Positions 38,449-55,560 of a stretch of DNA of 64,000 bases are shown here, piece after piece. Origin of the DNA: the human T2T-CHM13v2.0 reference genome, Homo sapiens; assembly GCF_009914755.1 (NCBI RefSeq), contig NC_060946.1; one strand, written 5' to 3'. Both the position numbers and the translations under genes were made by a program. The first letter of the stretch is position 1. Every line of letters begins with the position of its first letter. Below the pieces are notes generated by a model. It ran no database searches and was not told the origin of the DNA. It saw nothing but the letters and a program-made list of their open reading frames with translations.

Positions 38449-38677
38449 AAACCATCAAGCCACAGTAATAAAAGGACTTGGTTTGTCTCACTGTGGCCCA
38501 AGGAGAAGTAAGGTTAATAGAGACAAGACATTTCAGGGCTTCAAGACTCTTCCCTTAAAGGTGGGATCAGTTAGGGCTCCCCAGTGGGAGGTACCCGGTC
38601 TGCCAGTGTGGTAGGAGGAAAGCCAGGGGGAGTCAGGAGACTGGGTCCCAGCTGGAGAAGGTGCCCCTCTGACAGTT
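38449..38677 (+). repeat. Long inverted repeat 1, left arm (donor)
   Basis: Reverse complement of 39487-39717; about 14 substitutions and 3 small indels. Confidence 0.96.
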
Positions 38678-39486
38678 CTGTGTCCCTTTCACAGTCCCTG
38701 GATAGATAAGGCTAGAAAAGTGGCCACAGAAGTAGCTTGGGTGGAGGGATTTTTGTTTGTTTTGCATGAACAGCAGGAACCATTCAGCTCCACTGCTGAA
38801 TGGCACATTCCAACAGGTTCATTAATTAAAAACAAAAACAACAACACGATTCTCCATCGCACTTGGCTTTTACCATTCCAGCCAGTATGGACAAGGAGGC
38901 CCCTTCTTCTACCTTTTGTCATAGTCTACTCCTGGGTGGCCTTGAGAGGCAGGGTGGAGTGGTGGAAAGGCAATGGGGAGGGCAGATCTGAGCTCCACTC
39001 CTTCCTCTGGGGCTTGTTGGCTGTGTGTGCCTAGGCACATATGGGCTACCTTTGAGCTTTAGTTTTCTTATTTATACAAGGGGAATAACAATTTGTACCA
39101 TCTTGGCCTGTTTTATCTATATTTTAAAAGCTACAAGTATATGAATACATTCTATGTCCATGTATGTATCTCTCTGTATATCTATGATATATCCATTTCT
39201 ATTTATCATTTATCATCTATCTATCTATCTCTCTATCTAAAATCGGAGAAGAGTAAAATCCTTTCTGATTACTTTTTCTAACTCTAGTCCCTTCTCCAAA
39301 TCCTTTTCTTCCTATACATTTACATACATAGGTATCCATAGCAAATTTATAGTAGTTTTTCCCTTAGAAACATGAATAGTAGAACATTAAACATCATGGA
39401 ATACCACATAATACCACATATAGTATTCTGCTTGTTTCCCATTCAACAATGCGTACTAGAGATCTTTCTACTTAATATATATATAA

Positions 39487-39717
39487 AACTGTCAGAGGAG
39501 CACCTTCTCCAGCTGGGACCCAGTCTCCTGACTGCCCCCCTGGCTTTCCTCCCACCACATTGGCAGACTGGGTAGCTCCCCCTGGGGACCCCTAACTCAT
39601 CCCCACCTTTAAGGGAAGAGTCTTGGAACCTTGAAATGTCTTGTCTCTATTAACTTTACTTCTCCCTGGCCACAGTGAGACAAACCAAGTCCTTTTATTA
39701 CTGTGGATTGATGGTTT
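39487..39717 (-). repeat. Long inverted repeat 1, right arm (inserted copy)
   Basis: Reverse complement of 38449-38677; flanked on both sides by (AT)n. Confidence 0.96.
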
Positions 39718-39722
39718 GGAGG

Positions 39723-39875
39723 ATATATATATATAAATATATAATATATAAATATATAATTTATATATAATATATAAATATATAATATATAAATATATAT
39801 TATATATAATATATATTATATATAATATATATATATTATATTTACATATATATTATATATATAATATATATATTT
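39723..39875. repeat. Interrupted (TA)n tract, about 150 bp and nearly all A/T
   Basis: Read directly from the sequence. Confidence 0.95.
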
Positions 39876-41681
39876 CTTTTATGTATTTCATGAGGTTATA
39901 ATTTTAAACAGCTAATAAGTATAGAGTGATTACTATGTGCCAGGCATTATTCTAAGTCATTAACTTACATTAACTCATTTAATTCTCTCAGTTTTATGAG
40001 GGAGGTGTGCTATTGTCATCTCCATTTTACAGCTGAGGAAACTGAGGCTTAGAAAAATGAGGTAACTCGTTTAAGGTTATACTGCTAGCAAGGAATACAG
40101 CCTGTATTTAAGCCCCTTCACCCTGGCTCTAAAATATATTTAACAACTATACTATAGGTCACATTATACCATATCATATTATATATACTACTACATACTC
40201 TTATATTATTATAATTATATAATATGCATTTTCAATTTTAATAGTTCCTGCCAATTTGGCCTCCACAGTGGCTGTGTTAACACAGTTCTTTTCATATATG
40301 CAACATGAGGGGATGGAGGAATGTTAGAGCCCTGTGCTTAAGAGACTCCCATGCTTCTCTCAAATAGAAAAACAATTTATAATTTTTATTGACTTACTGA
40401 GTGTTTTTTTTCCTTCTTTTTGTCTCTTTGAAAGGGAGCAAAATTAGGGCCACGAAGATCAAGTTAATGGGAGTATTTTCATAGGGAGAGGAAGGCTGCA
40501 ATGCCAGGAAAGCTGTGACCCTTGACTTGTTGCATGCTGGAGTAATTCGGTTGAAGATAGCTTTATGTATTTATTTTGCTTTCAGAATAAGCAGTGGACC
40601 ATTTATTACACCAAGTTGTTTGACTTTGAGGACTTACATGGACTCAGGTTCAAAGGTATATGTGGCTGTGTTTTGAACACACATACACAGGGTTTTGCTT
40701 TCTGACTCAAAGCTGTCCGCTGGCCAGGCTCATGGTGGCAGCAAGGGCACTCACTCATCTGTCTCCCTTCTTGTTGCCTATGGATGGCACTTGGGTGAGA
40801 GCAGTGGGATGGTCACAAGGAGGAGGATGGACTGCCGAGAGGGAGGCTGGGTGGACCCCAGCCAAGAAGGACGCTGGGGTCTCATTATTATGGGAGCTAG
40901 AAGGCCTGGTTTAGGAAAGAATTCCTGTTCTGATGAAAGCTCTTCAGTGGACTCTTAGGATAAAGTATCATCAAATGGCTTTTACAAGGGCCAGTGTGGA
41001 CCCTGCCTACCTCATCCTCATAGTCTCATCACTGGTCTGTCCTGCTCCAGCTGTTCATACTCTGTCTCTCTGGCTCTTGGCCCATGACACCCCCTCGGTT
41101 TTGAACAGTCCTCATTAACTTCTCATTCTCTAGGTCTCCTTTGGTTCCTTTCCCTGATCACTCCTTGGCATTGGTACAGACGAACAGTCATAAACCTTGC
41201 CCATATTTTAAGCATGCTGAAAAACACCATCTCTAGTAAAACCCAAATTCTCCAAAGCTGCATGGGAAACTCCCAGAGGGGATCATTCCTGCGCTGGGAG
41301 AAAGAACTTAGGGCTGCGTGCCACCCAGAGGGATAAACCTAACCCACTTTAGAGGGTAAGCACCCACTATGCTCTCTGCATTACTTGATAAGTCTAGTCC
41401 TGTCTTCTGGTGGACATGATACCCTAGCACCCTCCCAGAGAAGAAAGTGGAGATTTCTAAATGCCAACCCTGCAGGAGATCACAAACATAATACTGTAAT
41501 TTTCATAGTAAGTTTGGTGCCCTTACTATGTGCCAGGCACTGTACCAAGCTCCTTACTTGCCTATCAGTCATCCCAGCTGCCTGATGAGCTGTCTCAGGC
41601 TAGGGAAGCCAAATGGCTTGCCCAAGCTCACACCACTTGCAACCTATACTTGCTTAGCCTATCTCCAAAACCTGTGTTTCC

Positions 41682-53839: not shown

Positions 53840-53995
53840 TGAAGATCTGCACTTGCTCTTCTGCTAACCGCTAAGGTGTCATCAGTGCTGTGCTATTAAA
53901 ATCAGAAGTCAAAGAAGGTGGGTGTGGCCCTCATAGCCAGAGTTGATAGAAATGGATTTATTAATATAATGGATGGTCCATAGAAAGGTGAATGA
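53840..53995 (+). repeat. Dispersed direct duplication, copy 1 (donor)
   Basis: 153/156 identical to 55145-55300. Confidence 0.98.
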
Positions 53996-54354
53996 CCTGG
54001 TTAACAGACAGGGATGGAGTGGAGACCTGTCTGCCCTGGTCTTCAGGCTGGTTCTGAAATCACAGAATTAAGATGATCTCAGCTGAGGGGCAAGGCAAAT
54101 CGGATGGAAGAGCGGAGGCCCAGAGAAGCGAAGCCCTTTCCCAATATCTCACAGCAGGTGGGGAGTGGGGGAAAGCAGCTTCCAGGGGGTGGATTCCTGA
54201 ACCAGGTATTTGTCACTGTCCCACGTAGCTCCTCTTGTCACCATATGTCCCACTCAGTGGAGGGATACTTCCTGCAAGACAAAGAGGGCCTCATGGTTCC
54301 CCCGTCACTCACTGCCTTCCACTCCCTGCTTCTGATTATTCTGTAAGAAGTTGA

Positions 54355-54656
54355 GGCCGAGCGCAGTGGCTCACGCCTGTAATCTCAGCACTTTGGGAGG
54401 CCGAGGCAGGCGGATCACCTGAGGTCGGGAGTTCGAGACCAGCCTGACCAACATGGAGAAACCCCATCTCTACTAAAAATACAAAATTAGCCGGGCGTGG
54501 TGGCGCATGCCTGTAATCCCAGCTACTCGGGAGGCTGAGGCAGGAGAATTGCTTGAACCTGGGAGGCAGAGGTTGCAATGAGCCGAGATCGCACCATTGC
54601 ACTCCAGCCTGGGCAACAAGAGCAAAACTCCATCTCAAAAAAAAAAAAAAAAAAAA
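54355..54656 (+). mobile_element. Alu (AluSp-like)
   Basis: ACATGGAGAAACCCC diagnostic; TSD AAGAAGTTG. Confidence 0.95.
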
Positions 54657-54974
54657 GAAGTTGGAGCTCTGTCTGTCTGTCCTTTCCCCAACTCCCCATC
54701 TCCGAGGCTGGCTCCTGTGCCCAAAGTCTTCCTCGCTGTCTCTGGGTATGTTCACAGGGTATGATCACATTTCCCCTGCATGCCCTGCGTGGGATGTGCT
54801 CCATGTGCTGATGCCTCTGGGGATTTCCAGATGATGTCCCTGGACTTGGCAGAGCAGTGTGGGGAATCTGGGACTTGCACTTCCTATCCTCATGGAGTCT
54901 GGTCTCTCACCTTCACAGGCCACTAAGAGGAAAGGCAACTGGTGTGACGTCTGGGGAGGGAAGTATGTTCCTGT

Positions 54975-55560
54975 GCATCGAAAGCCTCAAACATGTGCAT
55001 ACACTTTAACTAGCAATCTTACTTCTAGAAATTTAGTCCTAAGAAATAACTAGGTAATGGAGTCCATTGCTACATTGTTTATCCCCAAATTAATCTAAAT
55101 GTCTATTGCAAATAGACTGCTTAGATTATGGTGCGTTCATACAGTGAAGATCTGCACTTCCTCTTCTGCTAACCGCTAAGGTGTCATCAGTGCTGTGCTA
55201 TTAAAATCAGAAGTCAAAGGAGGTGGGTGTGGCCCTCATAGCCAGAGTTGATAGAAATGGATTTATTAATATAATGGATGGTCCAAAGAAAGGTGAATGA
55301 AAGAGTCATAAAAGATGTTGAGGTAGTTCTCTATTGATGCCAGAATAGCCCTATGGTGCACTTTTGAGTAACAGAAGCCAATTTGTTAAAAACAACAACA
55401 ACAACAACAAAAAAAAACAGAGAGAGAGAGATGAATGTGCATCCAGATGCTTAGAGAAGAGTCTGAATGTCTGTATACTAAATATCAACACTAGTTACTC
55501 TGCGCTGTGGGATTTTGGATGATTTTAATTTGATCCAGTGTTTTCTGGAAAATAAAATTT
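54975..55560 (+). mobile_element. L1ME-like fragment, interrupted by the duplicated segment 55145-55300
   Basis: TAGCAATCTTACTTCTAGAAATTTAGTCCTAAG...ATTATGGT..CATACA. Confidence 0.65.
55145..55300 (+). repeat. Dispersed direct duplication, copy 2 (inside an L1ME-like fragment)
   Basis: 153/156 identical to 53840-53995. Confidence 0.98.

What the first reader, a model, noticed from the sequence alone, without database searches (positions are those of the whole stretch)
38449..55300. Cluster of locally templated insertions: nearby DNA copied into old TEs, three times within 17 kb of TIMP3 intron 1
Seen: three 156-283 bp segments of non-Alu sequence each have a second copy 0.8-1.5 kb downstream, two inverted and one direct, at ~92%, 95% and 98% identity. 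Each downstream copy interrupts an older element (L1ME-like/(AT)n, MIR, L1ME-like) and has no poly-A tail or TSD, so it is not a retrotransposition product. Two older dispersed copies (229/2265, 52632/54699) and a micro-triplication (14021) fit the same pattern. Established: templated insertions arise from template switching or synthesis-dependent end joining during break repair. Inference: the different identities suggest separate events over a long period, i.e. a persistent break/repair hotspot, possibly linked to opposed TIMP3/SYN3 transcription. TE annotation would not report this pattern.
Basis: partly seen in the sequence, partly recalled or inferred. Interest (0 to 1): 0.85.

Follow-up and report, generated by a model that had tools for sequence, protein, structure and literature searches.

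The report
Three nearby-DNA patch duplications in TIMP3
Three short stretches of unique DNA in the first intron of human TIMP3 were each copied once into a spot about a kilobase away, which is the known scar of imperfect DNA-break repair; whether their closeness marks a break-prone spot is not settled.

Summary
Three sharp-edged pairs exist:
- A: 38449-38677 and 39487-39717, inverted, 92.2% identical.
- B: 41682-41968 and 43483-43769, inverted, 95.1%.
- C: 53837-53995 and 55142-55300, direct, 97.5%.

Each sequence has exactly two copies in the whole T2T genome. No downstream copy has a poly-A tail or a target-site duplication. A2 sits inside a (TA)n near-palindrome. B2 sits inside a MIR-like repeat. 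C2's left flank is a dispersed repeat.

This is not a new kind of feature. It matches "repair-mediated duplications" (RDs; Pace et al. 2009, PMC2671141). That paper describes 824 human cases, mean 162 bp, with a unique donor under 5 kb away (peak about 1.2 kb), found as inserts that split TEs.

The hotspot inference is not established.
- The three divergences do not differ significantly (p=0.25 for substitutions), so separate ages are not shown.
- The local density is about 75 to 290 times the published average. No other such pair lies in 247 kb of flank.
- If the true genome total is 2,000 to 4,000, about 0.1 to 1 such triple is expected genome-wide by chance.

Of the two "older" pairs, 229/2265 belongs to a dispersed family. 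52629/54696 is a true two-copy pair.

The parts
38449..38677 (+). A1, donor of pair A (unique sequence)
   Evidence: Two genomic copies only. Its flanks give 0 nhmmer hits in 264 kb.
39487..39717 (-). A2, inserted inverted copy of A1, 92.2% identical
   Evidence: TA-repeat on both sides: 'TTAATATATATATAA' on the left, and 'GGAGG' followed by (AT)n on the right.
39723..39873 (.). (AT)n near-palindromic simple repeat that hosts A2 at its edge; likely break site
   Evidence: TRF period 2, 81 copies. Palindromic arms I4 and I5.
41682..41968 (+). B1, donor of pair B
   Evidence: Two genomic copies only.
43483..43769 (-). B2, inserted inverted copy of B1, 95.1% identical, no gaps
43348..43796 (.). 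MIR-like interspersed repeat split by B2 (43348-43481 on one side, continuing about 43770-43796 on the other)
   Evidence: A family HMM was built from 50 other copies in the 264 kb, with the B2 region masked; it has 153 hits. It aligns at hmm 40-206 up to the junction in the real sequence, and at hmm 40-227 across the junction when the insert is removed. 4 of 12 single-sequence nhmmer hits span the junction. The name MIR is recalled.
53837..53995 (+). C1, donor of pair C
   Evidence: Two genomic copies only.
55142..55300 (+). C2, inserted direct copy of C1, 97.5% identical
54923..55121 (.). Dispersed old repeat on the left flank of C2 (L1-like by recall)
   Evidence: nhmmer hits to L009 (E 6.3e-8) and L013 (E 2.9e-7) on other chromosomes. 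Genome hits at 80-81% identity. Continuity across the insert is not shown.
52629..52695 (+). D1, older two-copy local pair, first copy
   Evidence: 82% identity over 67 nt. Two genomic copies only.
54696..54762 (+). D2, second copy of D, just after an Alu poly-A

Best explanation
A, B and C are three repair-mediated duplications (RDs). The proposed mechanism has four steps:
1. A germline double-strand break occurred at each downstream site. For A this was at the edge of an AT-rich near-palindrome.
2. A resected 3' end invaded duplex DNA 0.8-1.5 kb upstream, on the same or the sister chromatid, using little or no homology.
3. It copied 159-287 nt and was released.
4. It was joined to the other broken end. 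This leaves a second copy, in either orientation, without a poly-A tail or a target-site duplication.

Shown here: the two-copy status, the sharp ends, the lack of retrotransposition marks, and insertion into older repeats for A and B.

Inferred: the break, the synthesis-dependent strand-annealing route, and a germline date of roughly 5-30 million years ago.

The closeness of the three is most simply a chance or mildly rate-elevated cluster of events of this known class.
For: Fit to the published RD class (Pace et al. 2009, PMC2671141, sections read):
- Each sequence has exactly two genomic copies. Positive controls show the search finds old families.
- Lengths are 229-231, 287 and 159 bp, and donor-to-acceptor gaps are 810, 1515 and 1147 bp. 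The published values are mean 162 bp, maximum 619 bp, 753 pairs under 3 kb apart, and a peak near 1,200 bp.
- No poly-A/T or adjacent target-site duplication is present. Likewise none of the 39 proximal RDs inspected in print had a poly-A/T tract.

Polarity (which copy is the insert):
- A2 has TA repeat on both sides.
- B2 splits a MIR-like copy.
- C2's left flank is a dispersed repeat.

None of the six copies lies in the stretches masked as repeats in the hub's table.
Against: - No orthologous empty site could be examined, so insertion polarity for C and the dates rest on inference.
- Continuity of the host repeat across C2 was not shown (right-flank scores fall below the shuffle means; no Pfam match).
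- Junction microhomology is weak. 5-nt words (CTGTG for B, CGTTC for C) lie near the junctions but not at them.
- Three events in 16.9 kb is 75-290 times the published density, which plain chance explains only if the published catalogue is a several-fold undercount.
Confidence: 0.8

Rival explanations
1. Persistent local hotspot. TIMP3 intron 1 has had a raised rate of break-and-copy repair over tens of millions of years. The cause would be local DNA structure or two-way transcription.
For: - In 264 kb of contiguous sequence, the only low-copy pairs of >=80 nt (all three are >=159 nt) and >=90% identity within 5 kb are A, B and C. None lies in the other 247 kb.
- The chance that 3 uniform points in 264 kb fall within 16.9 kb is 0.012.
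- All 5 verified two-copy, non-tandem local pairs (A, B, C, D, and E at window 75012-75326) lie inside the 61-kb TIMP3 unit.
- Pace et al. report no trend to cluster and 0.62 RD per Mb of TE DNA. That gives an expectation of 0.04 per 64 kb.
- Break-prone motifs are present: the AT near-palindrome at A2, a roughly 300-bp (GA)n tract, and (TG)n runs.
Against: - The window was picked because of the cluster, so local p-values are inflated. Only pair E was found independently (p=0.23).
- The expected number of such triples genome-wide by chance is 0.086 for 1,800 events and 0.95 for 4,000. The true total is unknown.
- The ages are not significantly different (p=0.25), so 'long period' is not shown.
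- B2 and C2 do not adjoin any of the unusual motifs.
- No transcription, break-map or random-window data were available.
Confidence: 0.25
2. One complex event. Several breaks in one germ cell were each patched from nearby DNA, so the cluster reflects a single accident and not a hotspot.
For: - The divergences are compatible with a single age (chi-square p=0.25 for substitutions).
- All three inserts lie downstream of their donors at similar distances.
Against: - Point estimates differ 2.4-fold for substitutions (2.5% against 6.1%).
- A against C gives p=0.04 when indel events are counted.
- The 3.8 kb and 11.4 kb between the sites are otherwise intact and collinear.
- Pair D, at 18% divergence, is clearly older.
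Confidence: 0.1
3. RNA-templated patches. Nascent intronic RNA from TIMP3 (sense) or SYN3 (antisense) was reverse-transcribed into the breaks.
For: Per the hub's table, the region is transcribed on both strands, so either orientation could arise. RNA-derived templated insertions without poly-A are described in the literature (recalled, not read here).
Against: - In print, retrotransposition hallmarks were confined to distant or interchromosomal duplications and absent from all 39 proximal ones inspected.
- The tight 0.8-1.5 kb spacing is what a DNA template in cis predicts.
- Nothing in the sequence points to RNA.
Confidence: 0.05
4. Paired ends of a mobile element (LTRs or terminal inverted repeats), or members of a dispersed repeat family.
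For: The direct pair C and the inverted pairs A and B have the geometry of LTR and TIR pairs.
Against: There are two copies only in 3.1 Gb for each. Real old families gave 69 to 2591 first-look candidates in the same tool. No target-site duplications were found.
Confidence: 0.02

Closest known systems
Repair-mediated duplications (RDs), Pace, Sen, Batzer & Feschotte 2009, PLoS Genet (PMC2671141)
   Same: An insert of >=50 bp splits an older repeat. There is one unique donor on the same chromosome under 5 kb away (published peak about 1.2 kb). Length is about 150-300 bp. Either orientation occurs. No poly-A is present. The events are primate-age.
   Different: Three lie within 16.9 kb, whereas the paper saw no trend to cluster. 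A2 sits in a simple repeat and not a TE, so that pipeline would not list it.
'Nearby doublets', Thomas et al. 2004 PNAS (seen only as cited in Pace et al. section 14; the paper itself is not held; details recalled)
   Same: Short paired local duplications about 1 kb apart that arise by insertion of a copy.
   Different: Doublets were defined as 25-100 bp exact matches and mostly lie on the same strand. Here the copies are 159-287 bp, diverged, and two of the three are inverted.
Short-range template switching (Walker et al. 2021, PMC7954356; search listing and abstract only)
   Same: Local re-copying of nearby sequence, often inverted.
   Different: As I recall, those events are tens of bases long and occur in place. 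That fits the 23-nt motif at 14021-14095, not A, B or C.
Somatic templated insertions / MMBIR in cancer (PMC8421209 and PMC7025897; search listing and abstracts only)
   Same: Copying of genomic segments into breakpoints.
   Different: Those are somatic, often chained, and take templates from a distance. These are fixed, germline, single inserts from within 2 kb.

Membership tests
Repair-mediated duplication (Pace et al. 2009) | An insert of >=50 bp interrupts an older repeat whose two flanks are contiguous in the family | tested here: met
   - B2: the family HMM runs to the junction in the real sequence (hmm 40-206) and across it once the insert is removed (hmm 40-227; score 35.7 rising to 38.2). 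4 of 12 hits span the junction.
- A2: (TA)n lies on both sides. This is a simple repeat, not a TE.
- C2: only the left flank is shown to be a dispersed repeat. Continuity is inconclusive.
Repair-mediated duplication (Pace et al. 2009) | The inserted sequence is found at only one other place in the genome | tested here: met
   2 of 2 first-look candidates for each of A, B and C. Sensitivity controls.
Repair-mediated duplication (Pace et al. 2009) | The donor is on the same chromosome, within 5 kb, and more than 50 bp away | tested here: met
   The gaps between copies are 810, 1515 and 1147 bp.
Repair-mediated duplication (Pace et al. 2009) | No poly-A/T tract of >=5 at an end of the insert | tested here: met
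   Insert ends and flanks were printed. None is present.
Repair-mediated duplication (Pace et al. 2009) | Microhomology, filler or a small deletion at the breakpoints | tested here: inconclusive
   - There is a 5-nt possible filler, GGAGG, beside A2.
- 5-nt words are shared near but not at the junctions: CTGTG for B and CGTTC for C.
- A deletion of about 10 nt in the host at C2 rests on a recalled L1 consensus only.
Repair-mediated duplication (Pace et al. 2009) | An empty orthologous site in an outgroup species | not testable with these tools
   No primate genomes are held. The own genome 'has no relatives here'.
Dispersed repeat family / LTR or TIR pair | Many genomic copies and target-site duplications | tested here: not met
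L1-mediated retroposition or transduction | Poly-A tail and a 4-21 nt target-site duplication | tested here: not met
   The longest left/right shared words are 4-5 nt and do not adjoin the insert.
Recurrent break/repair hotspot | Event density above a genome-wide null, with events of different ages | tested here: inconclusive
   - The density is 75-290 times the published mean.
- There are none in 247 kb of flank.
- Chance triples expected genome-wide are 0.09-0.95 for 1,800-4,000 events, and the ages are not distinct (p=0.25).

The most novel reading that the evidence does not exclude
TIMP3 intron 1 is a long-lived germline hotspot for break repair that copies nearby DNA. It would have at least five two-copy local duplications (A, B, C, D, E) of different ages within the 61-kb gene and none verified in 200 kb of surrounding SYN3 intron. 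The rate would be raised by local non-B DNA or by convergent TIMP3/SYN3 transcription. As a by-product, the two inverted pairs would give the intron 218- and 274-bp double-stranded RNA stems.
Probability: 0.25. Interest if true: 0.55.

Novelty: new member of a known kind. Interest (0 to 1): 0.3.

Why it matters
The three pairs are clean, well-preserved examples of a known but little-used class of germline mutation, in which break repair copies nearby DNA. On their own they are ordinary.

What could matter is the clustering. The only systematic survey reported no clustering. A proven hotspot would therefore give a natural locus for asking what makes a site break repeatedly in the germline and why repair there copies local DNA. 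That claim needs a genome-wide null and primate dating, and I could do neither here.

A side consequence is that two long inverted non-Alu repeats sit in one intron of TIMP3, a gene tied to retinal disease. In the pre-mRNA they should form long duplexes. This is an inference.

Tried and rejected
- Random-genome control. I drew 160 random 10-kb stretches. I gave this up, so no genome-wide density was measured here.
I could not see whether B and C are already listed. This bears on novelty and dating.
- Thomas et al. 2004: not held.
- C2 host continuity. Local alignment to 4 related loci gave right-flank scores below the shuffle means. Pfam on six read-through frames of the flanks gave 0 families.
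- The first HMM-building script timed out. It was redone with lighter settings.
- The query 52600-52780 was swamped by (TG)n (570 candidates, 40 scored). It was redone as 52620-52700.
- Rfam on 36000-58000: 0 matches.
- Literature. There were 9 papers with 'repair-mediated duplication', none on clustering or TIMP3. The TIMP3/SYN3/structural variant search and the dispersed/inverted duplication search gave nothing on this locus.
- LTR, TIR and TE-family readings were rejected on copy number.
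Full report
**What is there**

Repeat finding on 38000-56000, a self-BLAST of the whole window and global alignments with 40-nt flanks agree on three pairs with sharp ends.

| Pair | First copy | Second copy | Orientation | Differences | Identity |
|---|---|---|---|---|---|
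| A | 38449-38677 | 39487-39717 | inverted | 18 of 232 columns (14 substitutions, 4 gap columns in 3 indels) | 92.2% |
| B | 41682-41968 | 43483-43769 | inverted | 14 of 287, no gaps | 95.1% |
| C | 53837-53995 | 55142-55300 | direct | 4 of 159, no gaps | 97.5% |

In one search, the other long self-matches in the window are about 300-nt multi-copy elements (Alu-type) or simple and tandem repeats. None of the six copies lies in the stretches that the hub's table lists as masked repeats.

**Not a repeat family**

The window's own assembly (3.1 Gb, 24 contigs) can be searched. Each of A, B and C returns only its two local copies: at E<=0.001, and at E<=10. In each case 2 first-look candidates were found and 2 were scored.

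The tool warns that its counts are lower bounds, so I ran positive controls.
- Segment 229-387 returns 5 extra partial matches at 74-83% identity.
- Three other low-depth local pairs from the neighbourhood return 979, 2591 and 69 first-look candidates, with 40 scored each, at 70-87% identity.

Old dispersed families are therefore seen by this tool. A, B and C are not such families.

**Which copy is the insert**

- A2 has TA repeat on both sides. On the left is '...TTAATATATATATAA'. On the right are five bases, GGAGG, and then a 150-bp (AT)n near-palindrome (palindromic arms). A1's flanks have no relatives in 264 kb (0 nhmmer hits).
- For B2, I built a profile from 50 copies of the flanking repeat found elsewhere in 264 kb, with the B2 region masked out. 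The model is 289 positions long and has 153 hits. In the real sequence the profile aligns at positions 40-206 and stops at the junction. With the insert removed in a script it runs on to position 227, and the score rises from 35.7 to 38.2. Also, 4 of 12 single-sequence nhmmer hits span the junction. By recall this repeat is MIR.
- C2's left flank is a dispersed repeat. nhmmer gives E 6.3e-8 and 2.9e-7 to loci on other chromosomes, and the genome search gives 80-81% matches. I could not show that the right flank continues the same element. Scores against four related loci fall below the shuffle means, and Pfam finds nothing in six read-through frames. From memory both flanks resemble the 3' part of L1 ORF2 with about 10 nt missing. 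That is recall, not a test.

**No retrotransposition marks**

None of the inserts has a poly-A/T run at an end. The longest words shared by the 30-nt left and right flanks are 4 nt (B2) and 5 nt (C2), and they do not adjoin the insert.

Junction microhomology is weak. CTGTG (B) and CGTTC (C) occur in both the donor and acceptor left flanks, a few bases from the junction.

**What it is**

A literature search led to Pace, Sen, Batzer and Feschotte 2009 (PMC2671141). I read the abstract and sections 6, 7, 8, 11, 12, 14 and 17, plus passages of section 15.

The authors parsed TE annotation for TEs split by an insert of >=50 bp whose sequence occurs at only one other genomic place. They found 1,136 such inserts. 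For 824 of them the donor lies within 5 kb (753 within 3 kb, with an apparent peak near 1,200 bp). Mean length is 162 bp, median 147 and maximum 619.

None of the 39 proximal cases they inspected had a poly-A/T tract. All 39 showed microhomology, filler or small deletions. The authors ascribe these events to synthesis-dependent strand annealing at double-strand breaks, and they name them repair-mediated duplications.

They link them to the 'doublets' of Thomas et al. 2004. I could not read that paper.

A, B and C meet every criterion I could test: a unique donor, distance, length, no poly-A, and insertion into an older repeat (clear for A and B, partial for C). The kind of feature is therefore known. 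The remark that TE annotation would not reveal the pattern is the reverse of how it was discovered.

**Ages**

Using substitutions only, with the paper's rate of 2.2e-9 per site per year and with 1e-9 as a slower alternative, one search gives:

| Pair | Age at 2.2e-9 | 95% interval | Age at 1e-9 |
|---|---|---|---|
| A | 14 My | 8-23 | 31 My |
| B | 11 My | 6-19 | 24 My |
| C | 6 My | 2-15 | 13 My |

The three divergences do not differ significantly. Chi-square gives p=0.25 for substitutions, 0.10 counting indel events and 0.07 counting gap columns. Only A against C with indels reaches p=0.04.

'Separate events over a long period' is therefore possible but not shown. A single multi-break event cannot be excluded from the sequence alone.

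**Is the cluster unusual?**

I fetched 100 kb on each side of the window and self-aligned the 264 kb.

At >=80 nt, >=85% identity, start-to-start distance of at most 5 kb and a gap of at least 50 bp, 10 rows appear.
- 6 are Alu-depth.
- 4 are low-depth: A, B, C and one 85% pair that turned out to be a dispersed family.

The other 247 kb therefore holds no pair of this class.

At a looser threshold (>=50 nt, E<=1e-3, depth <=3), 15 rows fall into 11 loci.
- 5 are verified two-copy, non-tandem pairs: A, B, C, D (52629/54696) and E (window 75012-75073 / 75268-75326, inverted, 87%).
- 4 are dispersed families.
- 1 is a three-copy near-tandem array.
- 1 (108546/111838, 68.6%) is untested.

All 5 verified pairs lie in the TIMP3 transcription unit (34136-95517). 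However, four of them were the reason the region was chosen. Only E counts as independent (p=0.23).

Against print, Pace et al. give 0.62 RD per Mb of TE DNA and saw 'no trend ... to form clusters'. Extrapolated to the whole genome this is about 1,900 events, or 0.04 per 64 kb. The observed density is 75-fold (per 64 kb) to about 290-fold (per 16.9 kb) higher.

The expected number of triples within 16.9 kb somewhere in the genome depends on the true total:

| Assumed events genome-wide | Expected triples within 16.9 kb |
|---|---|
| 824 | 0.008 |
| 1,800 | 0.086 |
| 4,000 | 0.95 |

The published catalogue is admittedly restricted. It needs well-annotated split TEs, and A2 would not qualify. 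A several-fold undercount is therefore plausible, and one chance triple in a whole-genome scan is then unremarkable.

This was the same pipeline run on random windows, for which I had drawn 160 coordinates. I could not see the paper's Table S1.

**Possible causes**

- A2 adjoins an AT-rich near-palindrome, a plausible break site.
- The region also holds a roughly 300-bp (GA)n tract at 46558-46854, several (TG)n/(AC)n runs, and an 84-bp tandem duplication inside the RefSeq enhancer.
- B2 and C2 do not adjoin any of these.
- Nothing available here tests the idea of TIMP3/SYN3 transcription conflict.

**Consequences (inference)**

In either transcript the inverted pairs would pair over 218 bp (A, -426 kcal/mol) and 274 bp (B, -536 kcal/mol). 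Rfam finds no known RNA family in 36000-58000.

**Verdict**

The hotspot claim remains a hypothesis, which I put at about one in four.

Noticed in passing
L031:1012-1073 and L031:1268-1326 (window 75012-75073 / 75268-75326, beyond the window, still in TIMP3): A small inverted pair, 87% identical over 62 nt (about 80 nt if one 5-nt indel is allowed), with a 195-nt spacer. It has only two copies in the genome.
   Followed up: partly
window 52747-52916: An 84-bp unit duplicated in tandem (2.0 copies, 93% match). It is rich in (TG)n and overlaps the start of the RefSeq enhancer 52806-53307.
   Followed up: no
window 46534-46854: A (GT)12 run followed by about 300 bp of (GA)n-type polypurine tract. 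It is weakly similar, inverted, to 13337-13534. This is a possible triplex-forming sequence.
   Followed up: no
window 14021-14095: A 23-nt word appears twice in direct order with a partial inverted copy between the two. By recall, this is the look of a short template-switch event.
   Followed up: no
window 229-387 and 2265-2420: A direct pair at 80.5% identity, 2036 bp apart, flanking an Alu. Part of it matches 5 other genomic places at 74-83%, so it is probably two pieces or LTRs of an old element and not a local copy.
   Followed up: partly
window 38449-39717 and 41682-43769: The inverted pairs would give intronic transcripts long double-stranded stems of 218 and 274 paired bases. These are possible RNA-editing substrates outside Alu.
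   Followed up: partly
L029:4540-4784 (window about -5460 to -5216): Three local copies of a roughly 60-nt unit within 250 bp, found nowhere else in the genome. This is a small private minisatellite-like array.
   Followed up: partly
window 1918-2227 and 54353-54661: These are the two most similar Alu-type copies in the window (91%, inverted, 52 kb apart). Each lies next to one member of an older local pair. Probably coincidence.
   Followed up: no
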